This document shows, in pieces, positions 174 through 13,709 of a stretch of DNA of 14,634 nucleotides. The notes beneath the pieces were generated by a model. That model saw nothing but the letters and a program-made list of their open reading frames with translations. It made no database searches and was not told the origin of the DNA. A program made the translations under genes and the position numbers. Numbering within the stretch: position 1 is the first letter of the stretch; each line of letters opens with the position of its first letter. Origin of the DNA: Octopus sinensis (taxonomy: Eukaryota); NCBI RefSeq assembly GCF_006345805.1, contig NW_021825785.1:1-14634 (forward strand). Reading direction: 5' to 3'.

Positions 174-232
174 ATTCCACTGATGAGGCAAAGCATTTCT
201 AAATGCAAAGACAGAAATCCGGGATCTGGAAT
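174..232 (+). ncRNA. Type I hammerhead ribozyme-like motif (family A, copy 1)
   Basis: Stem I ATTCCA(174-179)/TGGAAT(227-232); core CTGATGA 180-186; stem II region GGC-AAA-[GCATT-TCTA-AATGC]-AAA-GAC-A; GAAA 214-217; minimal stem III ATC-CGG-GAT; predicted cleavage after AUC (C226). Base of stem II is imperfect. Confidence 0.75.
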
Positions 233-533: not shown

Positions 534-627
534 GTGTGTGTGTGTGTGTGTTTGTGTATGTGTGTATGGTGTGTGTATGTGTTTGTGTATATGTGCGTGT
601 GTGTGTGTGTTGTGTGTGTGTGTGTAT
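470..627. repeat. Compound microsatellite (TA)n(TG)n
   Basis: Directly visible dinucleotide repeats. Confidence 0.97.
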
Positions 628-628
628 A

Positions 629-995
629 GGCGCAGGACTGGTTTTGTCGTATCTTGCTTAACGACCAGGGTTCAGTCCCACTGCGTGACATCTTACGTAG
701 GCGTCTTCTACTATAGCCTCGGGCCGACCAAAGCCTTGTGAGTGGATTTGGTGGACGGAAACTAAAAGAAGCCTGTCATATATATATTTATATATGTGTG
801 TGTGTGTCTGTTTGTCCCCCTACCATCGCTTGACAACCAATATTGGTGTGTTTACGCCCCCGTAATTTAGCGGTTCGGAAAAGCGGAATGATAGGATAAG
901 TACTAGGCTTACAAAGAATAAGTCCTGGGGTTGATTTGTTCGACTAAAAGCAGTGCACCAGCATGGCCGCAGTTAAGTGGCTGAAATAAAAGAAT
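629..995 (+). mobile_element. tRNA-derived SINE with internal (TA)/(TG) tract and LINE-derived 3' tail
   Basis: Starts GGCGCAGG; decayed A box; B-box-like GGTTCAGTCCC 669-679; internal microsatellite about 779-807; 950-986 matches the LINE 3' end (5509-5545, -) at 28/37 nt; A-rich end. Confidence 0.85.
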
Positions 996-1390: not shown

Positions 1391-2679
1391 TATATGTATG
1401 TATGTATAGTTCTCCCTTCAAACGTATCCAATCTCCAGAAAATTAGGTGCCATTATTTATGATACACGTGTTTGCATGAATGATTCGCTTCAGTATCTGC
1501 TCGGCTTTGCCACAACATTTTTAGAAGCTAAAAAGTAACAAAGAACAAAAATGTAAACAAATCTAAAAAGAATATACAGTGTCTATTGTCTTATTAATGT
1601 TTACCAAGGAAAAAGGAATAAAGATTGGACAGTCTTTCCTTTCTTTTCAAACTGTTGCTTATTATTATTATTTTCATTTTTATTATTGTTAATGTTATCA
1701 CTATTATTATAAGTTCTTCTTCTCATTATTATTATTATTATTGGCAAGTTATTCCCATATTAAGTACCGGCCCTAACTTTGTTTGACATGTCACATGCGA
1801 GGAGAGCTAAGGGTTTGAGGGAAATTTTTGTAATCAGTAACTCGTAAAATGAAATCCCTCACTCTCTCTCTCACACACATACATACACACATACACCTTA
1901 ATACACAAATATATAGCTATACATTCTTTTTTAGATATTTCTGGTTAAATATAGTATAGTATGAAAAGCCAAAAATAAAGAAATATTACTGAAATAATAG
2001 ATATAAATAGGAAAATTTTATTCAGAAATTGCATGTTGATAGCAAAAAGAAAACCATGAGAACAAACCACAGCATTAATCGTTGATTCCTCTGTTGAACA
2101 ATTTATGTCAGCTTTGCCAATCTAGCAGAAACGTTGCCAGGAAGAACATCCAACCAATATCTGAAGTGGAAACTACTCCACCTAACAAAGCTTAGTGCCA
2201 GGCGCGACACCCTAATCCAGACCTAGGAGGAACGCCTTATCCGGGAACCGACTGTTTCGGAGGTTTCAACAGCGATGGGAAATAATGTTATATTAGCTGT
2301 GAGTGAAGAAGAGCAACTTACAGCTGCGAGAGGAAATTGAAAGTATCGAGGCTGCTTTTAATGGTGTCCTTCAGAGTTGAGTGGGAAGGTGTTCATTTCG
2401 ACAAAGAAGAGCGTGGATGCTGTTCTAAGTCTTTGCTAGTAGATTCACGATAGCATTTATGTGGCTGACGGACGCGGAGACCGAATAACAAGGTAACTCC
2501 GATGTGTGTGTACTACTAGTCGAGAAGCTCCGCACGGCGAACAGGGTCCCGTGTCCATCCAGGTCCTACTGTTTTGTTGCAATGCAGTTTCTTGACAGGA
2601 GAAGTGGTGTTATTTGGTGGAAGACTGAATCGTCATCTTGGCGGAAGTATACTGAAAAAATTGACCCATCGCATTGATT

Positions 2680-3450
2680 GGGCATGTCTAAGAGGTCTAT
2701 TATGAACAGTAATGGCCCCAGAACAGTTCCCTGGGGGACGCCACTTAGGAATTCAGTTTCCTCAGAAAGGGCACCATTGGTTGTAACTACCTGACATCTG
2801 TCTTTGAGGAAATCATGTAGCCACTCTCCCAGTTTACCAACAATGCCTAGTTCTCGTAGCTTATGACTTATCATGCCATGATCTACCTTATCAATTGCTT
2901 TTGCAAAGTCAAGATATATCACGACGACTTCCGAATGGTCAAGCAGCTGTTTCAAAACCCAGTCATAATGCTGTAGGAACTGTGTGAGGCAGTTTTTACC
3001 GGGACGGAAGCCTTGATGTGTATTGTTCAGCGGGTCATTTTCTTCTAGGAATATTATCAGCTTCTTTCTGATGATTCGCTCCATGACTTTACTGATATGC
3101 GAAGTCATAGAGATGAGTCTGTAGTTTTTGGCCTCTAATCTGCTTCCACCTTTGTAGATCGGGCATATAATGCTTTCTTTCAGCTTTTTTGAAAGTCTAC
3201 CACTTGCAAGGAAACTTTGGAAAAGTATCTGAAGTAGTTTCGCTAAAGCCTGCTTACATGACTTTAGGAGAATAGCTGGGAAGTCATGAGGAGCAGTTGC
3301 GGAGCATGAACTCATTTCATCAATGACCACTGATACATCTGTCTCCTCAATTTTAATTTAATCGACGATTGGGTCTTCCTTTTTTAGAGCTGCAATATCG
3401 AAAAATTCAACCGGATTTTTTTATTTGCATGTATCCAAGGCGGGAAGTGA
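2680..3450 (-). mobile_element. CR1-group LINE reverse transcriptase fragment (N-terminal RT motifs; stops before YADD)
   Basis: ORF 2566..3330 has PIYKGG, NYRLISMTS..SKVME, QGFRPG, YLDFAKAIDKVDH, SGVPQGTVLGPLLF; homology ends at DMP (2680-2688). Its N-terminal part aligns with 6485-6700 of the larger LINE. Confidence 0.92.
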
Positions 3451-3875
3451 AGATACTTACTCACGTGTCTTGAATGGGCTGGAGTGTTTCTATTTTGGAT
3501 GTATTTGGGGTACTTAATTGTGCTTATGACTTAGTGTTTGCTTCTTCCATGGGTATGAGTAAGTATCTCATTTATTTCTTTTACCACATTTATCACTGAC
3601 GCAGGGAGGGCTCTTATGAGCTAACCCTGAAATCGGTCCGATGTAGTAATAATGGAATTTTTTAGAAATTTCTGTCGACTTTTTTCGAGTAGCATGCATA
3701 GTGTGAAAAAATTATATGGTTAATGGACAATATGTCCAATTTTTCGGCATATTTGGCATTAGGAATTTTTTCGTTTGCCCTTATTTATGAGTTATATAAA
3801 TTTAACATTTAAAGGAATTTTTAACATGCTGGCCATTGATGAAATTTTTTTTGAAAAAGAAAAAAATTTAATCCT
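3451..3875 (+). mobile_element. Non-coding hammerhead-bearing repeat, family A copy 2
   Basis: Same order and spacing of motifs as 174-466 (core CTGA to CATGCTGGCCA: 229 vs 232 nt); terminal hairpin then (TA)n. Confidence 0.6.
3590..3649 (+). ncRNA. Degenerate type I hammerhead ribozyme-like motif (family A, copy 2)
   Basis: Stem I TTATCA/TAGTAA (1 mismatch); core CTGACGC 3596-3602 (variant of CUGANGA); stem II AGGG-AG-[GGCTC-TTAT-GAGCT]-AA-CCCT; GAAA 3629-3632; palindromic stem III ATCGG-T-CCGAT; position 17 is G3643, so probably inactive. Confidence 0.65.
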
Positions 3876-5480: not shown

Positions 5481-5572
5481 ACCTATTTTATTTTATTTTT
5501 TTATATAGTTTCAGCTCACGAGCTGTGGCCATGCTGGGGCACCGCCATTTGCTGTTGCCACATGATTTTACT

Positions 5573-7945
5573 TCACGAATGCTTTTTAGCAACTGCCATT
5601 TGGTGCATGAGAGAGTTCGATGCAGCAGCCCTCATCTGCACCTCCTGCGGTGAAGTTGGTTCATCCGAGACACCTGACAGGATGAGATCCAGTCCTACTT
5701 TAAAGACATCCACATCCACCCTATGCAAGTCCCTCATGTTCTTCTGGAGGATATTGAAGAGCTGTGGGCCTCTGAAGCCCAGGCTATCACAGTATCTTGT
5801 CCTACATATTGATGGCAAATTTGGAGTCCTTGGCACCACGCAGTGGCGCCCAGTTCTGGCATTTGTGTAACTCTCGATGCCAAAGTTTGGGACAAGTCCT
5901 TCCAGGATCTTCCAGATGTATATTATGGCATATCTCTCTCGCCTACGCTCCAAGCTCTTGAGTCTTTCCCAGTTGCTTATATGCTATCTTCGTGTAGCTT
6001 CGTTGGATCGCCTCAAGTTCTGTGATCAACTTGACACTGGATGGTGACCATAGCCGAGAGCAATAGTCAAAGTGGCTTAGGACAAGTGTCCTCCAGAGGA
6101 CCATCATGTTTTCTTGTTCTCTTGTTCTAAAGGTTCTAAGAATCCATCCAGCCAGCCGTCTACATTTCATTGTCAGTTTAGCAACATGTACATGAAAGGT
6201 CGCGTCATCACTCATGTGAATACCCAGGTCACGCACTGATTGTGCCTCTGGGATTGCAATCCCTCCGGGTCCAGTGTATTCCTTGGGTATTGCATTCAGT
6301 TTTGCATGCTGATAGTATAAAGCTTGAAACTTTTCAGCATTGAACTGCATGCTATTCTTTTCAGCCCACTTGTATACTTTGTCCAGCTCACATTGCAGGT
6401 GCATAGTGTCTTCAGGGTTCTGTATTACATGTGAGACTTTTGTATCATCCGCATAACTTGTGATCGTGGCTCTCTGCGTGACTTTAGTGGTCTTGCTAGG
6501 AATCTTTTACATACTTTTAGAAGGATTGCCGGGAATCCATCGGGGCCAGTAGCTGAGTTTGTTTTCATTTCATCTATAGCCTTTATTACATCGTCTTCCT
6601 TTATATTGATGTAATCAATCATCGCCGCCTCTGATTTTATATCTGCAGTGGTAAAGAAGTCAGTTGGATTGCTGATTTGGAAATGCCCTAGGGGTGGAGT
6701 GAAAACACTCTTGAATTGCTCATTCAGTATTTCACTTACCATCATTGGATTTCCTGTGAGTGTGCCATCCTTTTCAAGAGTGGCCCTATCCTGCAGTGCA
6801 CCGTAGCTGTTTCTTTGGCATACCTGCAGAAAGCTCTGGGGTTAGATTTTATGTTGTCTATAGCCCAGGCTTCTTTGTCTGCTCTTTCCTTTTCATGGGA
6901 GAGTTGCAGACATTTTTCAATTTCCAACAGTTTTATTTTCAGGCGGGACTTTTCACTGCTTTCAATTTGTTTGTTTAGGCGATTTGAAATTTTTGTACGC
7001 CGTCTCATTAGAATTTTCCTCTCTCTGGGGATTTTGTTCTTGTGTACAGTGGCCTTTCTCTCTGGGACACATTTGTAGCATATGGCTTGCATTACAGACA
7101 TGAATTGTTGAAGTTTCACGTCGATGTCTGGTGAGGAGAGACATTCAGGCCAGTTTTGTTTGAGGATCTCTTAATTTGTTTCCAGTTTGCCTTATGGATG
7201 TTCAAGCTGGAAAGATTCTGAGAGTTTCTTGTAGGCTGCATGTCCATGCTTTCCTTTGGCCCGTACATGGTCAGCTCTACCATGTTGTGATCCGAGAGTA
7301 GTGTCGGTGTCACTTTCACATTATGTATGAGATCCATATTATTTGTGAAGCAGAGATCCAGTGTGTTACCTGCCCTGGTTGGTTGGAGTATTACTTGCTC
7401 CATGTACAGGGTGTTGATGAGGTTCAGGAGGGACCTCGCCTGTCCTCGTTCACATCGTGTCATTCCTGGGAGAGAAAGGCCTCGGGCCATCTGACATTGG
7501 GTAGATTGAAGTCTCCCATAAGAAGTACACTTATGTGTTGTTCTAATGTGACTAGAACTTCTTCTATTTTTATAAGGCAGTCTTCAAACTTGCCTACATG
7601 GCTTGGGGCATCTGGAGGGTGATATGTAGCACACACAACTACACCAAGCTGCCTTAGATGTACAATTAGTGTGTCACACACCGAGTTTGAGTATGACAAA
7701 AAAAACTGGAGTGTGAGGTCCTCACGGATGTACATAGCAACTCCTCCATGACTCCTTTCTTTTCTGTCGGTCCGTAGTACAACATACTGTGGTATGTGTA
7801 ATTCCGCATCTACTATGTCCGGTTTCAAGTGTGTTTCCGTAAGTGCTATGCATAAGGCTTGATTGCATGCAACAAAGTCTCCCAAGAACGGGATTTGTGT
7901 CCTGTTACTGAGTGTTAGTAGTCCTCTGATGTTCAGTAGGAGCAT
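5573..7945 (-). pseudogene. LINE ORF2 (APE endonuclease + reverse transcriptase), frameshifted and deleted
   Basis: APE motifs NIRGL, LTETHL, GGVAMY, YHPP, GDFNLP, TLDLCF, SDHNMV across ORFs 7460..8029 and 7116..7490; RT pieces in 6425..6745, 5943..6404 and 5573..5953. Confidence 0.92.
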
Positions 7946-8445
7946 CGAGGTGAGGTGTATGCTGTTGCTGGTGGTGTCCACCTTGGGTCTATTTGCTGTG
8001 GTGGTCTTGTGTATTGTGGATAGTCCCACCTGCGAGCTTGAGTTTGATGGAGCCAGGTTAGCTGCTGTACAATCTTTTGTGCCATGCCCAAAAAAGATTC
8101 TTGTCCAGCAGCTGCCCTTTCAACAACATGTTGGCGGTTTGTGGCACGCACCACATCTGCGTACCTCCGTTTTGGGGCAGGCGGTGCGTGGTCCATCCCT
8201 TTTCCTTTTGGTAGTTGGTTTCTGACCTGTTTCGTGTCTCTGCGGCAGGGTCCCCGATGTGCAAAACGGCAGCCTGCACCTTCCTCTCAATGCCAGCAGG
8301 CACCTCTCAGGTAGAACCTACACACCCGTGTGCGCTGTCTGTTTCCATCCTTTTTGGTATATGGATAGTCAGGTTTGCTTCTATCCTTGGCTGTTTCATT
8401 TTTTGGTTTTGTTTGAGTTTTAGTTTTAGTTTTTCCTCCTTTTAT
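7933..8445 (-). pseudogene. LINE ORF1 remnant with CCCH-type zinc finger
   Basis: Manual translation in the frame of ORF 7933..8196: VCRFYLRGACWH*EEGAGCRFAH (C-x7-C-x8-C-x3-H, 8322-8257); the frame ends overlapping the putative ORF2 ATG at 7945. Confidence 0.7.
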
Positions 8446-10260
8446 TTATTTTTTGGCTCTTTCATCTCCATGGCTTTTGGTGCTGGTAGGAGCACTTGCC
8501 CTTGGGTTTACTTCCCGGGCAGGTTTCTCCCTTGAATCTTCTTCCTGTGTGTCTACCAGTTGGGGGTGACTTCTTTCATCAGCACCCGCGTCTCCATCCT
8601 TGCCATCTTTACTTTGTTGGTTGTCAAAGATGGCATCAAGCGTGCCAATATGAGATCTTATAAGTGCATAAGAGCGTATAAACTCCTGCTTCTTCCGCTC
8701 TATCTGAGCTATCGTCCTTTTATATCCACTGCTCTTCAGCGCAGCTGTAATTATGTTGTTCGGATTATCTCCGTCGGCGAATTGTCAGGCTCTTACGAAC
8801 GACGCCAATTCGTCACGTCTCCAGGTTCTGGACATGTTGGATATTTTATTTATTTATCTATCTAATTATATTTAAAATTTAATAGTGTGATAGAGGGTAG
8901 AGAAGAAATACAGAAAGAAAGTGACTGTGTATTTAGAGAGATTGAGAGCTGAGAGAAGATAAGAAGAGAGTAAGAGAGGAAAGTTCGCGACTATATATTT
9001 AGAAAAATTGAGACGCTGAAAGAGGAAAGATTGTGTGACAGAAGTGAGTTAATGAACTTATGTAGACACGCAACCAAATTTAAAATGTCAAATATAAATA
9101 CACCATATGGATAGAGTATATATTTTGTATTTTTGATTTTTAAAATTTTGATTTTGACTCTTGGACTAGTATGTAAACGCGACGATGGATTTGTTTCGCG
9201 CTATGCAGATTTCATTCCGTATAGCAAAGTCTCATGCATATATTTTGTTTATTTTGTTTATATTTCTACATATACATTAGGAAAAACCTTCGGATTTGTT
9301 TATTTCATGTTATTGTATTGTATAGGTATAACTTGATTTTTAATTTATAGATGATCCAAAATAGGGTGTTATATTTTATATGTCTTTCGTATATTTTTCA
9401 TTATTGCACTCACCTTTTTTTAAAAAGCAATTTTGTCAAAAATTAGAATATTGATGTAAATATGTGTATAGCCATGGATATGTATTTGTAAGCATGCGTC
9501 CCTGTGTATGTGTAAGTGAGCGTATGTTTGTGCTTAAGCACACACATACACGACTGTATGTGTATGTATCCATTCGAACTTATGTATTTGTGTACTTGTC
9601 TCCATATATGTCAATAACGTGGTTACACAGCTTGTATACATAATTTTTCTTATTTCGTTTTTTCCCCCACCCCTCCTTTTTCTTTTTTCCTTCCCCTTCT
9701 TCGTTCCTTTTTTCTCTCTCTTCCTTTCTTTCGTTTTTTTCTCTAACTGATACTGGTACATACAACTTTACGTCCCCCTTACTTAAGCTGTACTCCGTAA
9801 ATAAGAAACGCTACATTAGCATCGATGATTTTAACTTGCGTGCGAGATAGATTGCGTACATATATGTATGCATGCATTTGTGTGTATATTTTATATTTAT
9901 ATTTATACGTCTGTATATGTATGGCGTTTGCACGCATCCTTCTGTGTATGTTGATATATATATGTACACTTTAATATGAATATGTATTGCAGTGTAATAT
10001 TTATAATGCTTTTAATTTCCATGCATCAATTATATTTCCTTCATTAATGTCAATATGTATTTTATTCAATGTCAGGTTTTTTTCCTCGAATTTTATAATT
10101 TTTATAATTTTTATATATATACATATATTTTTGAGCTCATTTTTTTGTTTATCGCTCGAAGATTGACCGTTATTTCTAAAGGGCCAATCAAACAAGTCCA
10201 TTTTTTAAAGGTGTAGCGTTTGTAAGAGTCTGGATTGAATTGATATATCGGTTCCATTCT

Positions 10261-10314
10261 AGCAAAAACTATCTGATGAACGGCAACGAGAAACTCAGAG
10301 TAACAGATTTTGTT
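10261..10314 (+). ncRNA. Minimal type I hammerhead ribozyme-like motif (family B, copy 1)
   Basis: Stem I AGCAAAAACTAT/ACAGATTTTGTT (10 of 12 pairs); CTGATGA 10273-10279; stem II A-CG-GCAA-CG-A; GAAA 10290-10293; palindromic stem III ACTC-A-GAGT; predicted cleavage after GUA (A10302). Confidence 0.8.
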
Positions 10315-10410
10315 GAATTTTCTGCTGCTTTAAATAAAGCATATTACTCTACCACTGGTATTTGAGTACTCTTTTTTCCACCTTGTTTCACATTTATGTG
10401 TTTACTCCGG
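10261..10410 (+). mobile_element. Hammerhead-bearing short repeat, family B copy 1
   Basis: Similar to the reverse complement of 12157-12234 through ..GCTTTAAATAAAGCATA; ends at (TA)n. The 5' boundary is uncertain. Confidence 0.65.
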
Positions 10411-10575
10411 TATATGTATATATATGTAGACATACATTAATATATATATACTTATATATATATAGACATACATTTTATATATATATGTCTATGTAGGCGT
10501 ACATTAATATATATATATATATACATACTTATATATATAAAGACATACATTATATATATATATATATATATATTA
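10411..10575. repeat. (TA)n field with AGACATACATT units
   Basis: Directly visible; units start at 10428, 10464, 10495 and 10541. Confidence 0.93.
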
Positions 10576-10881
10576 TTTATGCGCCCTTTTCAAGCCTAAC
10601 CAGGCTTATGGGCCCGGTTTCCGGGTTTTTATGGCGTATGTGTTCCCCCCAGCTGGACGGGACGCCAGTCCATCGCAGCGTTACTCAAGAAACAGGAAGA
10701 AAGAGTGAGAGAAATTTGGGACGCAAGAGTACAGCATAGGTTGTCACCACCCCCTGCCAGAGCCTCGTAGAGCCTTACGTGTTTTCGCTCAATAAACAGG
10801 CACAACGCCCTGTCTGGGAATCGAAACCGCAATCCTTCTACCGCGAGTCCGCTGCCCTAACCACTGGGCCATTGCGCCTCC
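10576..10881 (-). mobile_element. tRNA-derived SINE (second family)
   Basis: Minus strand starts GGAGGCGCAA; A box TGGCCCAGTGG (10871-10861); B box GTTTCGATTCC (10827-10817); about 300 nt, ending in ATAAATAATA and (TA)n. Confidence 0.88.
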
Positions 10882-11000: not shown

Positions 11001-11295
11001 CATTCCACATGTATTACACACGCAAATAATAGTTTCACCTACACGACAAGTACGTTCATCGGGCGCTGATTATTTTATGAAACTAAGACGTTTGAATAGG
11101 AAACCGTGCGAGAGGTGATGATTCTAAAGCAAACCATATTTAATGGAAGATTCCTCTAAATATGGGTTGCTTTAGAATTACTTCTCGCACGGTTTCCTAT
11201 TTAAACTTCTTGGTTTCATAAAATAATCAGCGCCCGATGGACGTACTTGTCATGTGGGTGAAACTATTAGTTGCGTGTGTAATACACGTGGAGTG
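11001..11295. mobile_element. Foldback palindrome / probable MITE
   Basis: Arms 11001-11148 and 11151-11295 are reverse complements with about 14 substitutions and one 3-nt indel; 2-nt spacer; TA directly outside the right end (TT on the left). Confidence 0.85.
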
Positions 11296-11403
11296 TATTA
11301 ATACATTAATATTGGACTTTCATGAGATGGAGTATTCTTTTTGTTGAATATTGCACACAGATCACTTTGCTATATATATACGTACATACATACATACATA
11401 CAC

Positions 11404-11998
11404 ACAAAGGAATACTGGTGGAAAATACCACTGAAAACTTCAATAAAATGTAAGCACAACAGGCCTTATATAATGATTTGGGTTAAAGAAGAGAAACTGC
11501 ACAGTTGTGGAAACCAGCTGCCCATTGGATGTCAACATAAAGCTGAAGATCAGTGAAAAAGAGAACACCTATGCTGAACTATTGAGAAATCTGCAGTTAC
11601 TCTAACCAGATTACAAGTTCAGATTTACACCTGTAATTATCGGGGCCCTGGGATATGTAACACGCTGCCTAAATACCAATCTTGAGAAATTAGGCTTCTC
11701 AAAACCAGAAAAGAGAAAGTTAATTCGAAGACTACAGATCCAATCCATCACTGGAACTGTAAAAATCAGTAAAACTTTCCAGAAGTTTATCATTTAAATA
11801 TATATGAGCGTGTTTAGATATGTAACTATATGCATGAGAATACATACATAAAACATACAAATCTGCACATACATACATACAAACAAAAATATCCTGTTGC
11901 TGATGTTGAAATTCCAATGAAGGAAGTTTAGGTTAGGAATCTAGGTTAGAAACCAGTTCTTTCGCTATTGGCAAGAAATCTTGAAATAAACTGAATGA
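11404..11998 (+). mobile_element. 5'-truncated RLE-type (R4/Dong-like) non-LTR retrotransposon 3' end
   Basis: Translation across one frameshift (about 11500) and one stop (11603-11605): EYWWKIPLKTSIKCKHNRPYIMIW..TVVETSCPLDVNIKLKISEKENTYAELL..PVIIGALG..FII* (stop ends 11797), the RPD..E..K..Y layout of a restriction-like endonuclease; then about 200 nt of 3' UTR. Confidence 0.85.

Positions 11999-12124: not shown

Positions 12125-12156
<32 letters not shown>
12001..12156. repeat. (CA)/(TACA)/(TA)/(TG) microsatellites
   Basis: Directly visible. Confidence 0.95.
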
Positions 12157-12192
12157 AGGTATACTTTTATTAAAGCTGCTAAATTATCACAA

Positions 12193-12234
12193 AACTGTTA
12201 CTCATAGTTTCACGTTCCCTCTCGTTGGACAGTT
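12193..12234 (-). ncRNA. Degenerate minimal type I hammerhead-like motif (family B, copy 2)
   Basis: Minus strand reads AACTGT-CCAACGA-GAGGGAACGT-GAAA-CTATGAG-TA-ACAGTT: perfect 6-bp stem I and spacing identical to 10261-10314, but the core is mutated (CCAACGA). Confidence 0.7.
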
Positions 12235-12344
12235 GAGACAAATACATATCACAACTGAGTATATATATATATATATATACATGTGTGTGTATTATGTATG
12301 TATTATATACACATATATGTATGTATGTGTGTGTGTGTGCGTGC

Positions 12345-13490
12345 ATCAATCCAAAGAAGGCCCCTACCCTTCTACGTTAGGACAGAATACAGAATAGACA
12401 CCATTTTCTTTGAGATGTAGTCTCCTCCCTACATGTTTGTACCAGATATCCCAACAATCAACCTTTTAGTCGGCCACCTTCTCCGGTACCACCAGCATCA
12501 CCTCCTCTTCCACCACCTCTCTTTTGCTCTCACCCCCTCAAAAATGTTCCTCTGCCTAAGTATCACATTCGTCCAGTCTAATGGCATTCTTTTCAAACAG
12601 ATCCCAGTCCTGCCGTTGTGCCTTTGCCTTTCAATCCTTCTGGTCAACATCAGTATGGACCTAATTCTGTCTTCCCCTCGAGAGGCAGCTGCCAACTACA
12701 TATAAATTCATCAATGTTGCGGGTCACATTACTTTTGAGGCCGAACATCAAGACGACCCTCAATCCCTCGCTCTAATTAATTACCAACTCAAGATTACAG
12801 AAGAGGGATTCATCTATACAAACTTCTGCTTGTGAGAGGCCTGCAAGGGACACATTTATGCTCTACAAAATGGCGCTTCCTACCAGAGTCACATAGACCT
12901 ACGACCAAAACAAAATTTACCTGATACGCAATAGGTTGCAGAGAGGTAGTAATATAGCTGCTAATACGAAAGGACTTCAAAAGTTTTTACAAACATCGAT
13001 TTTTACCATTTTTACTGAACACCGGAAAGCTATTATGGATGGGTGAGATACCCACGTTTTCAAAGATGATATTTATATTCTGAGACGATCATTTTAATGA
13101 TAGAGCCGCTGCTGCAATCCACAGAGAGGTACCGAATACACAGATGATACCGAGTTCTTTCTGACTCGAAATCGACCAAAGAACAGCAACAAGTCAGACA
13201 CACTGACCTATTGTACTAACAACAATATATATAGTCTTGCGTTGAAGAGCCCACATAATGTACCAAATTGTCCGCAGTAAATGTGGTGATTGATTTGTAG
13301 GAGCCACCGACCAAAAGCTGTAATATCCTGATCCAGGAACACGAGTAATATATGAGGATTTCAATCAATAGACGTCCAAAGGAATGCTACAATTCAGAAT
13401 TTAGAGTTACCATTAATACAGCGGAATGCAACATCGGTAATTTCAGGATCAAACTAAACCTTTACATTAATTAACTAAGACCATCTATTA
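12345..13490 (+). mobile_element. Heavily degraded Penelope-like element (RT + GIY-YIG endonuclease)
   Basis: Manual translation: PFSL/DVVS (12401-12425, RT motif A); FKQIPVLPL..SILLVNISMD (motif B-like); HITFEAEH..SLALINYQLKI; DTFMLYKMALP; IMYQIVRSKCGD*FVGAT (13255-13308) then IQEH; FRIKLNLYIN*LRPSI (to 13489). The order matches PLE ORFs. Confidence 0.78.
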
Positions 13491-13709
13491 GAAACAGACA
13501 ATGGGCTGATTGTTTAGTGTAGCAAAAACCATTCTGCACGTGTCACATTCCCAACAGCTTCCCATACAATTGAGCAAAATATACCAATCAACCACTTCCG
13601 TATTATACTCCATTTTTGTTTTTTTCGATGAAGGGCTATTAATCCCAATATTTCGAAGTGAAAAGTATGAGGAAATACGTTGTTCTGTCTTCTTTGCTTC
13701 CATTTTCAT
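13490..13709 (-). mobile_element. Possible hAT-like transposase N-terminal remnant
   Basis: KKTEQRISSYFS..SKKTK followed by DW(L)YF..WECDTC..F, resembling the W..CxxC..F start of a TTF-type zinc finger; weak and frameshifted. Confidence 0.3.

What the first reader, a model, noticed from the sequence alone, without database searches (positions are those of the whole stretch)
10261..10314. Second hammerhead family: two copies reconstruct a minimal, probably dimer-dependent ribozyme
Seen: ACTAT-CTGATGA-ACGGCAACGA-GAAA-CTCAGAG-TA-ACAG (+) and ACTGT-CCAACGA-GAGGGAACGT-GAAA-CTATGAG-TA-ACAG (-, 12233-12195) have identical spacing. Each copy repairs the other's defects, giving ACTGT-CTGAyGA-ACG-GsAA-CGT-GAAA-CTCwGAG-TA-ACAGT with a GNRA-capped 3-bp stem II. 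Stem III is a palindrome with a 1-nt loop. Established: such hammerheads cleave efficiently as dimers. Four hammerhead relics in 14.6 kb suggest a very high genomic density (inference).
Basis: partly seen in the sequence, partly recalled or inferred. Interest (0 to 1): 0.7.

Follow-up and report, generated by a model that had tools for sequence, protein, structure and literature searches.

The report
Decayed hammerheads from a Penelope-like retrotransposon
These are two worn-out copies of the small self-cutting RNA that sits at the tail of a known group of jumping genes (Hydra-clade Penelope-like elements), most likely in an octopus-type genome, so the feature is real but of an already described kind.

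Summary
Observation confirmed. The two copies (10268-10307 +, 12233-12194 -) align without gaps over 40 nt (29 identical), and homology continues about 36 nt downstream (77 nt, E 1.7e-6). Copy 1 has all 11 core bases and beats 150 of 150 shuffled windows; copy 2 has lost U4 and G5 and is recognisable only through copy 1. A motif scan of 596 Gb gave 4 matches, all the 3' hammerhead of one Hydra-clade Penelope-like element, matching the published coral element Hydra-2_aMil. Stem II of the reconstruction has no such check. Folding energies support dimer dependence: the monomer buries the catalytic CUGA against the stem III arm, and the double hammerhead is 11.6 kcal/mol better than two active monomers. 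'Cleave efficiently as dimers' is overstated: published Penelope hammerheads are slow even as dimers, and one needs its protein. The copies face opposite ways, so they cannot pair in one transcript. Genome-wide density could not be counted. New member of a known kind; both copies probably dead relics.

The parts
10268..10307 (+). Copy 1, type I hammerhead: core 11 of 11 intact, GUA site (cut after 10302), palindromic 4-bp stem III with 1-nt loop, 10-nt stem II region with GCAA loop; mismatches at 10271 (stem I), 10280/10289 (base of stem II) and 10268/10307
12194..12233 (-). Copy 2, same family, catalytically broken: core changed at U4 (12227) and G5 (12226), stem II middle pair and inner stem III pair broken; stem I perfect (5 bp)
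10308..10343 (+). 3' flank shared with copy 2, U-rich, ending after an AATAAA-like stretch
12160..12193 (-). 3' flank of copy 2; the copy ends here at a microsatellite (short form)
10344..10410 (+). Further 3' extension present only in copy 1 (long form); weakly collinear with the long-tailed copy of the outside relative
   Evidence: 20 of 5,000 shuffles for the first 70 nt after stem I; 1,210 of 5,000 for 40 nt; 198 of 5,000 for 92 nt
10140..10267 (+). Sequence upstream of copy 1, probably the element's 3' UTR (5' limit approximate); no coding remnant; its last 17 nt can extend stem I
   Evidence: stem extension 124 of 3,000 shuffles
10411..10573 (.). (TA)n-rich array directly after copy 1, the reported Hydra-clade target
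   Evidence: PMC8557442 section 11
12260..12326 (.). (TA)n-rich array on the 5' side of copy 2; a (TG)n run (12132-12156) and a TA-rich array lie on its 3' side
9016..9114 (+). Remnant of the C-terminus of a Hydra-type GIY-YIG endonuclease, same strand as copy 1 but 1.16 kb upstream; linkage to copy 1 not shown
   Evidence: iE 5.3e-4; best control hit 0.9; E 0.004; iE 0.1

Best explanation
Both copies are 5'-truncated, decayed 3' ends of a Hydra-clade Penelope-like retrotransposon (PLE) family inserted into (TA)n arrays. In the active ancestor the hammerhead lay about 130 nt after the endonuclease stop codon. A single copy could not form stem III (a 1-nt loop leaves 3 bp closed by 3 nt) and instead paired its catalytic CUGA with the 3' arm of stem III, an 'off' fold. 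In a tandem transcript two palindromic stem III segments pair with each other (8 bp around one mismatch), which frees both cores and allows slow, probably protein-assisted, cleavage after GUA that trims the element RNA out of the precursor. The inserted copies span the cut site, so they were copied from uncut or rejoined RNA. Today copy 2 is dead (G5 lost) and copy 1 is at best very weak (2-bp stem II, stem I mismatch, no same-strand partner). Shown: sequence, homology, relative's ORF linkage, computed energies. Inferred: PLE origin of these particular copies, dimer cleavage, processing role.
For: 4 of 4 motif matches in 596 Gb are the same hammerhead; 3 of the 4 follow the 3' UTR of a PLE whose ORF ends ...SELISKCRHENKFYLRNN, and the fourth is a truncated inverted copy joined to it. 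It equals Hydra-2_aMil in File S2 of PMC8557442 (by eye). Outside stem II copy 1 matches 27 of 30 and copy 2 24 of 30 bases; a profile of the relatives' 3' ends finds copy 1 at E 1.7e-5 and copy 2 at 0.034, with nothing else under E 5. 17 of 26 Hydra rows in that table have the 4-bp stem III with a 1-nt loop, 5 of 26 the same ACUC/GAGU stem (counted by eye). Relatives end about 27-31 nt (3 of 4 copies, at microsatellites) or about 90 nt (1 of 4) after stem I, as copy 2 (about 38) and copy 1 (about 104) do. Energies: two-copy composite active monomer -2.7, core-trapped monomer -8.4, double hammerhead -17.0 against -5.4 for two active monomers; relative -6.3, -11.2, -26.5 against -12.6; stem III hairpin +2.1 against -7.4 as a duplex. 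A Hydra-type endonuclease remnant lies in the window. The best-identity named hits of a neighbouring LINE are octopods, and a Hydra-clade element is known from Octopus bimaculoides.
Against: No RT or endonuclease sequence is attached to either copy, so clade membership rests on the ribozyme and its context. The 5' flank of copy 1 does not resemble the relative's UTR (988 of 1,000 shuffles as good), and the 3' flank is not significant unanchored (345 of 1,000). Part of the 27-of-30 identity is forced by the search pattern (22 fixed bases) and by the hammerhead core itself. No covariation in the 4 distinct rows aligned. The double-hammerhead fold is not the computed minimum for the dimer (-17.0 against -18.6, composite; -26.5 against -32.2, relative) and only ties two trapped monomers for the composite (-16.8); the energy model ignores core contacts. 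Some hammerheads with a 3-bp stem III may work as monomers (recalled). No cleavage or expression data.
Confidence: 0.8

Rival explanations
1. The family is a non-autonomous PLE derivative (mini-element or solo retrozyme-like unit of roughly 100-300 nt) that keeps only the ribozyme-bearing end and borrows RT and endonuclease from a Hydra-clade helper.
For: No coding remnant next to either copy; the two 5' flanks differ from each other and from the relative; animal retrozymes are proposed to derive from PLE ends (10.64898/2026.07.22.740005).
Against: Ordinary 5' truncation within 130 nt of the ribozyme gives the same picture, and one of the 4 relative copies keeps only about 15 nt upstream of the core. 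No tandem array here.
Confidence: 0.25
2. The copies come from two related subfamilies with different stem II and outer stem I sequences, so the first reader's reconstruction is a hybrid that never existed.
For: Stem II region only 6 of 10 identical; 5' flanks unalignable, yet each can pair with its own 3' flank (124 and 440 of 3,000 shuffles); PLE hammerheads are reported as highly variable within a genome (PMC4209133).
Against: Identical spacing; 27% divergence fits old copies of one family; the flank pairing is weak and does not survive correction for 9 tests.
Confidence: 0.25
3. Copy 1 is a working, host-retained ribozyme that cuts a read-through transcript.
For: Its core is fully intact while copy 2 has decayed.
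Against: Three broken pairs; computed probability of the active monomer fold 2.5e-8; double-hammerhead energy 0.0 against -8.4 for two trapped monomers; no same-strand partner in the window; the region is a pile of transposon remnants.
Confidence: 0.04
4. Chance arrangement of short motifs in AT-rich DNA.
For: Copy 2 alone scores at chance level (120 of 150); no Rfam hammerhead hit (none among the 150 of 208 rows shown).
Against: Copy 1 0 of 150; pair E 1.7e-6; intact relative found; Rfam also misses all intact relatives.
Confidence: 0.01

Closest known systems
Hydra-2_aMil hammerhead (Hydra-clade PLE of the coral Acropora millepora; Craig et al. 2021, PMC8557442 File S2), and its near-identical copies in L001-L003
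   Same: Type I; stem I CUGU/ACAG, CUGAUGA core, stem III ACUC-N-GAGU, cleavage after GUA; microsatellite ends; short and long 3' forms; same core-trapping alternative fold in silico.
   Different: Stem II region 10 nt (3 bp, GNRA) against 12 nt (4 bp, G-C at the base); stem III loop base A/U against G; upstream UTR unrelated; no ORF attached here.
Hydra-1_oBim hammerhead (Octopus bimaculoides Hydra-clade PLE, same table)
   Same: Same clade, probably the same host group, 4-bp palindromic stem III with 1-nt loop, (TA)n preference.
   Different: Different stems I, II (7 bp) and III and a U at the cleavage site: a different family.
Minimal PLE hammerheads (min-HHR; Cervera and de la Pena 2014, PMC4209133) and the small dimeric PLE hammerheads of Lunse et al. 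2016 (title seen only)
   Same: PLE-linked type I ribozymes with a palindromic, unstable helix III, thought to work as dimers; many solo truncated copies.
   Different: min-HHRs mostly lack helix III, have a bulged base after A9, G10.1-C11.1 and a longer helix II; this family has a 9-nt helix III and a very short helix II.
Non-LTR retrozymes (Cervera and de la Pena 2020, PMC7229834)
   Same: Animal type I hammerheads, dimer-assisted in axolotl.
   Different: Tandem repeats of a few hundred nt with canonical loop 1-loop 2 contacts; here solo, inverted relative to each other, non-canonical helix sizes.

Membership tests
Type I hammerhead ribozyme | Core CUGANGA, GAAA, UH | tested here: met
   Copy 1 11 of 11.
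Type I hammerhead ribozyme | Core in copy 2 | tested here: not met
   9 of 11; U4 and G5 changed. It is a relic, not a ribozyme.
Type I hammerhead ribozyme | Three helices around the core, ends in stem I | tested here: inconclusive
   Copy 1 forms 9 of 12 pairs, copy 2 10 of 12 (one G-U); 8 of 2,048 chimeras form all 12; no covariation in 4 distinct rows.
Type I hammerhead ribozyme | Site-specific self-cleavage | not testable with these tools
   Needs an assay.
Type I hammerhead ribozyme | Rfam hammerhead model at gathering score | tested here: inconclusive
   0 hits in the window and 0 in L001-L003, which hold 8 intact-scoring hammerheads: the models miss this kind.
Hydra-clade Penelope-like element | 3'-end hammerhead of the clade's pattern (palindromic 4-bp stem III, 1-nt loop) | tested here: met
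   27 of 30 to Hydra-2_aMil-type copies; pattern in 17 of 26 table rows.
Hydra-clade Penelope-like element | Insertion into (TA)n | tested here: met
   Arrays at 10411-10573 and on both sides of copy 2. Weak, as such arrays fill the window (74 TRF rows).
Hydra-clade Penelope-like element | Single ORF with RT (RWK, DKT motifs) and C-terminal GIY-YIG lacking CCHH, ending about 130 nt before the ribozyme | tested here: inconclusive
   Nothing adjacent to either copy; a C-terminal remnant 1.16 kb upstream of copy 1. Absence is expected after 5' truncation.
Hydra-clade Penelope-like element | Pseudo-LTR, tandem or attached inverted arrangement | tested here: inconclusive
   The copies are inverted but 1.8 kb apart with unrelated elements between and share only 77 nt; solo truncated copies are the usual state.
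min-HHR in the strict sense (Cervera 2014) | No or 1-2 bp helix III, bulged base after A9, G10.1-C11.1 | tested here: not met
   9-nt helix III; 10.1:11.1 is A.A or G.U; no room for a bulge with 3 bp (definition).
Non-LTR retrozyme | Head-to-tail repeats, each with a hammerhead | tested here: not met
   No such array among 74 TRF rows; the family profile finds only the two copies under E 0.4.
Non-LTR retrozyme | Circular RNA made in vivo | not testable with these tools
   No transcript data.

The most novel reading that the evidence does not exclude
An uncatalogued, very high-copy octopod family of Hydra-clade PLE ends carries the most compact ribozyme of the clade (10 nt between the two core halves, against 12 or more in all 26 published rows), with a built-in conformational switch: the monomer hides its own catalytic CUGA in the stem III palindrome and only tandem pairing frees it. 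The switch is kept between a coral and an octopod family, through selection or a past horizontal transfer, and octopod genomes hold hammerhead relics by the hundred thousand.
Probability: 0.25. Interest if true: 0.5.

Novelty: new member of a known kind. Interest (0 to 1): 0.25.

Why it matters
It marks an apparently uncatalogued Penelope-like family in a probable octopod genome and shows that hammerhead relics can flag such elements where Rfam and protein searches see nothing. If the core-trapping fold holds up, it gives a concrete, testable reason why these ribozymes are silent as monomers, which bears on the open question of what PLE hammerheads do. The class, its link to Penelope elements, dimer action and high copy numbers are all published, so a specialist would not be surprised.

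Tried and rejected
Rfam: 0 hits at gathering score; the E-value run showed 150 of 208 rows, none a hammerhead, mostly microsatellite hairpins. Pfam on three frames each around copy 1, 11320-11830 and 12360-13560: no informative family in 9 of 9. Copy 2 as the inverted end of the PLE-looking remnant at about 12400-13500: rejected, no shared DNA, and that remnant was not confirmed by any search. Copy 2 as part of a short tandem unit (5' flank like its own 3' flank): 69 of 1,000 shuffles, dropped. Coding remnant directly upstream of copy 1: none. Extended stem I: 124 of 3,000 (copy 1) and 440 of 3,000 (copy 2) among 9 tested, kept only as a hint. Single-strand folding z-scores are unremarkable for copy 1 (-0.72), copy 2 (+1.07) and the intact relative (+0.15). 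The 17-nt window motif is absent from the Craig 2021 supplement (0 hits). The two copies acting as each other's dimer partner: rejected, opposite strands. MAFFT alignment of 8 mixed hammerheads was out of register, so no covariance model was built. Lunse et al. 2016 is not held, so its kinetics are unseen. Unchecked: any animal genome, Repbase and Dfam (not on hand), and the metagenome and viral contig collections.

Full report
Observation. Both strings are in the window as quoted. Copy 1 occupies 10268-10307 (+) with its cut site after 10302; copy 2 occupies 12233-12194 (-). They align without gaps, 29 of 40 identical. A masked self-BLAST joins 10267-10343 to 12234-12160 (77 nt, 72.7%, E 1.7e-6), and 0 of 2,000 shuffles reach the alignment score. 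The 3' flank alone is homologous (5 of 5,000), the 5' flank is not (4,442 of 5,000). So these are copies of one repeat, not two independent motif matches. With a scored type I descriptor, copy 1 is reached in 0 of 150 block-shuffled windows and copy 2 in 120 of 150. A plain core pattern finds 2 matches in the window (180-226 and copy 1) against 0.17 expected; 3 of 200 shuffles reach 2.

The reconstruction. Copy 1 has all 11 core bases and three broken pairs. Copy 2 has a perfect 5-bp stem I but has lost U4 and G5 and two pairs. Of 2,048 possible chimeras, 8 are complete with Watson-Crick pairs only. Random letters at the same 11 sites allow this in 11% of trials, at random sites in 1%, so mutual repair alone is suggestive, not proof. 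The outside check is stronger. A motif from copy 1 (22 fixed bases) gave 4 matches in 3 loci in 596 Gb of bacterial and archaeal assemblies, all on two contigs of one MAG record (CBDDTI010000061.1, CBDDTI010000225.1). These contigs look like animal DNA: microsatellites and several PLE ORFs with RT and GIY-YIG domains. All 4 carry the same intact hammerhead. Outside stem II it matches copy 1 at 27 of 30 and copy 2 at 24 of 30 bases. At the 7 sites there where the copies differ it sides with the repairing letter at 5 and has a third letter at 2 (stem III loop; fifth stem I pair). The pattern fixed the letter at 3 of those 5 sites (U4, G5, one stem III base), so the independent support is the stem I base and position 7. 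Two hints favour it: the same 10-mer is the tip of stem II in Penelope-2_NV (by eye), and an intact hammerhead with a 3-bp GNRA-capped stem II occurs in L003.

What carries it. In L001-L003 the ribozyme lies about 130-150 nt after the stop of an ORF ending ...SELISKCRHENKFYLRNN in three copies; the fourth is a truncated inverted copy. It equals Hydra-2_aMil, a Hydra-clade PLE from the coral Acropora millepora, in the supplement of Craig et al. 2021 (PMC8557442). That paper defines the clade by a short ORF, a C-terminal endonuclease without CCHH, canonical hammerheads and (TA)n insertion, and lists an Octopus bimaculoides member whose ribozyme is a different family. In its table 17 of 26 Hydra rows have a 4-bp palindromic stem III with a 1-nt loop, 5 of 26 have ACUC/GAGU, and none has fewer than 12 nt between the core halves, against 10 here (counted by eye). 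A profile of the relatives' 3' ends finds only copy 1 (E 1.7e-5) and copy 2 (0.034) below E 5. Relatives stop about 27-31 nt after stem I at a microsatellite (3 of 4) or run about 90 nt (1 of 4); copy 2 stops after about 38 nt, copy 1 after about 104. Two alternative 3' ends are a PLE trait tied to two reverse-transcription start sites (PMC11167929), though the reported tail is 30-40 nt and the difference here is about 65. Flank similarity to the relative is weak: anchored, 20 of 5,000 shuffles at 70 nt but 1,210 at 40 nt and 198 at 92 nt; unanchored, not significant. No ORF is attached to either copy. A Hydra-type endonuclease C-terminus lies at 9016-9093 (+): iE 5.3e-4 with a profile of 150 relatives, best control hit 0.9, but only 0.1 with the long profile; it is 1.16 kb from copy 1 and may be another insertion. 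Host: of 120 listed hits for the LINE at 2566-3354, 7 are named; the 4 octopod ones are 60-70% identical, the 3 crab ones 46-51%. Penelope elements are reported as expanded in coleoids (PMC8967140).

How it works. A 1-nt loop cannot close, so a monomer has 3 bp and a 3-nt loop (+2.1 kcal/mol); two copies form 8 bp around one mismatch (-7.4). In copy 1, the composite and the intact relative, the best monomer fold pairs UCUGA of the core with the 3' part of stem III (pair probabilities 0.5-0.99), 5-6 kcal/mol below the active fold for the composite and the relative. The double hammerhead is 11.6 (composite) and 13.9 (relative) kcal/mol better than two active monomers. It ties or beats two trapped monomers (-17.0 against -16.8; -26.5 against -22.4) but is not the minimum for the pair (-18.6; -32.2). 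With 20-nt flanks and cores held unpaired, copy 1 as a dimer forms the intermolecular stem III (-20.8 against -19.4 for two free monomers). These are nearest-neighbour estimates that ignore core contacts. They support 'probably dimer-dependent'. The likely job is to trim element RNA out of tandem precursors (inference, as proposed in PMC4209133). Both copies span the cut site, so they were copied from uncut or rejoined RNA, as found for PAc, where the ribozyme was dispensable for insertion in vitro. The two window copies are on opposite strands and cannot pair within one transcript. Native copy 1 has a double-hammerhead energy of 0.0 in the 40-nt form, and copy 2 lacks G5 (its essential role is established hammerhead knowledge, recalled): relics.

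On efficiency. [quoted passage not shown] Efficient dimer cleavage is reported for axolotl retrozymes, which have canonical tertiary contacts (PMC7229834). Lunse et al. 2016 could not be read, so a higher measured rate for such variants cannot be excluded.

On density. Four relics hold up and two weaker ones lie in a fold-back. One window, itself picked for interest, cannot give a genome figure. High numbers are already published: over 6,000 in A. millepora, 126,247 in axolotl, about 4,000 and 9,000 in coelacanth and Xenopus. L001-L003 hold 8 intact-scoring hammerheads in 15,963 nt, although they were selected around a match. For cephalopods I found only 235 Rfam hammerhead hits in giant squid (PMC6962438) and Hydra-1_oBim.

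Novelty. Six searches showed no paper on this family or on the core-trapping fold; only one search paired hammerhead, ribozyme and octopus (8 papers, 7 listed), none was aimed at the fold itself, and the library lacks most subscription journals, Repbase and Dfam. It works like a dimer-dependent PLE hammerhead; as a family it is best filed as a probable Hydra-clade PLE end, with the ORF criterion inconclusive. It fails the strict min-HHR and retrozyme definitions. Verdict: real, new member of a known kind, interest 0.25.

What was seen of each paper. PMC4209133: main text parts 1-2 of 4, supplement parts 1-2 of 3. PMC8557442: passages, section 11, supplement search hits and part 2 of 59. PMC6765202, PMC11167929, PMC6466107, PMC7229834, PMC6962438, PMC8967140: passages. 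10.64898/2026.07.22.740005: part 1 of 5; its supplements were not seen and might list related families. Lunse et al. 2016: title in reference lists only. Hammerhead numbering and the labels R4/Dong and Neptune are recalled.

Noticed in passing
window 175-231 (+): Best hammerhead in the window: intact core, 6-bp stem I, palindromic 4-bp stem III with 1-nt loop, C at the cut site, long imperfect stem II; 0 of 150 shuffled windows reach its score. A separate family.
   Followed up: partly
window 3591-3643 (+): Hammerhead relic with a long strong stem II (fold z -3.3) and a damaged core (A9 changed); 7 of 150 shuffles.
   Followed up: partly
window 11001-11295: 295-nt fold-back (arms about 88-91% complementary). 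Each arm holds a hammerhead-like motif (11234-11272 +, 11062-11024 -) with U4 changed to C and an ACUA/UAGU-type stem III like Penelope-1_HM; 63 and 13 of 150 shuffles.
   Followed up: partly
window 9016-9114 (+) and 9187-9212: Hydra-type endonuclease C-terminus. About 75 nt after its stop is a 5-bp inverted pair around a CGATGGA...GTT stretch that might be a hammerhead with its middle deleted (by eye only).
   Followed up: partly
window about 12400-13500 (+), 13624-13662: By eye a heavily broken canonical PLE (RT thumb, GIY-YIG-like stretch, endonuclease end) followed by a possible deleted min-HHR. No search confirmed it.
   Followed up: partly
window 11500-11995 (+): By eye the C-terminus and 3' UTR of a restriction-like-endonuclease LINE (R4/Dong-like, recalled), ending at a (CA)n run; no Pfam hit.
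   Followed up: no
window 2566-3357 (-) and about 5570-8300 (-): Two related LINE remnants (RVT_1; endonuclease/exonuclease/phosphatase domain), 64% alike over 228 nt; best-identity named hits are octopods.
   Followed up: partly
window 625-780 and 806-990 (+); 5500-5570; 10575-10880: Short non-repetitive blocks between microsatellites that look like SINE copies; 950-986 and 5509-5545 are 82% alike in inverted orientation.
   Followed up: no
L001-L003 (CBDDTI010000061.1, CBDDTI010000225.1): Contigs filed under a bacterial MAG but packed with Hydra- and Neptune-like PLEs, 8 intact-scoring hammerheads and microsatellites: probably animal DNA in the bin.
   Followed up: partly
   Followed up: no
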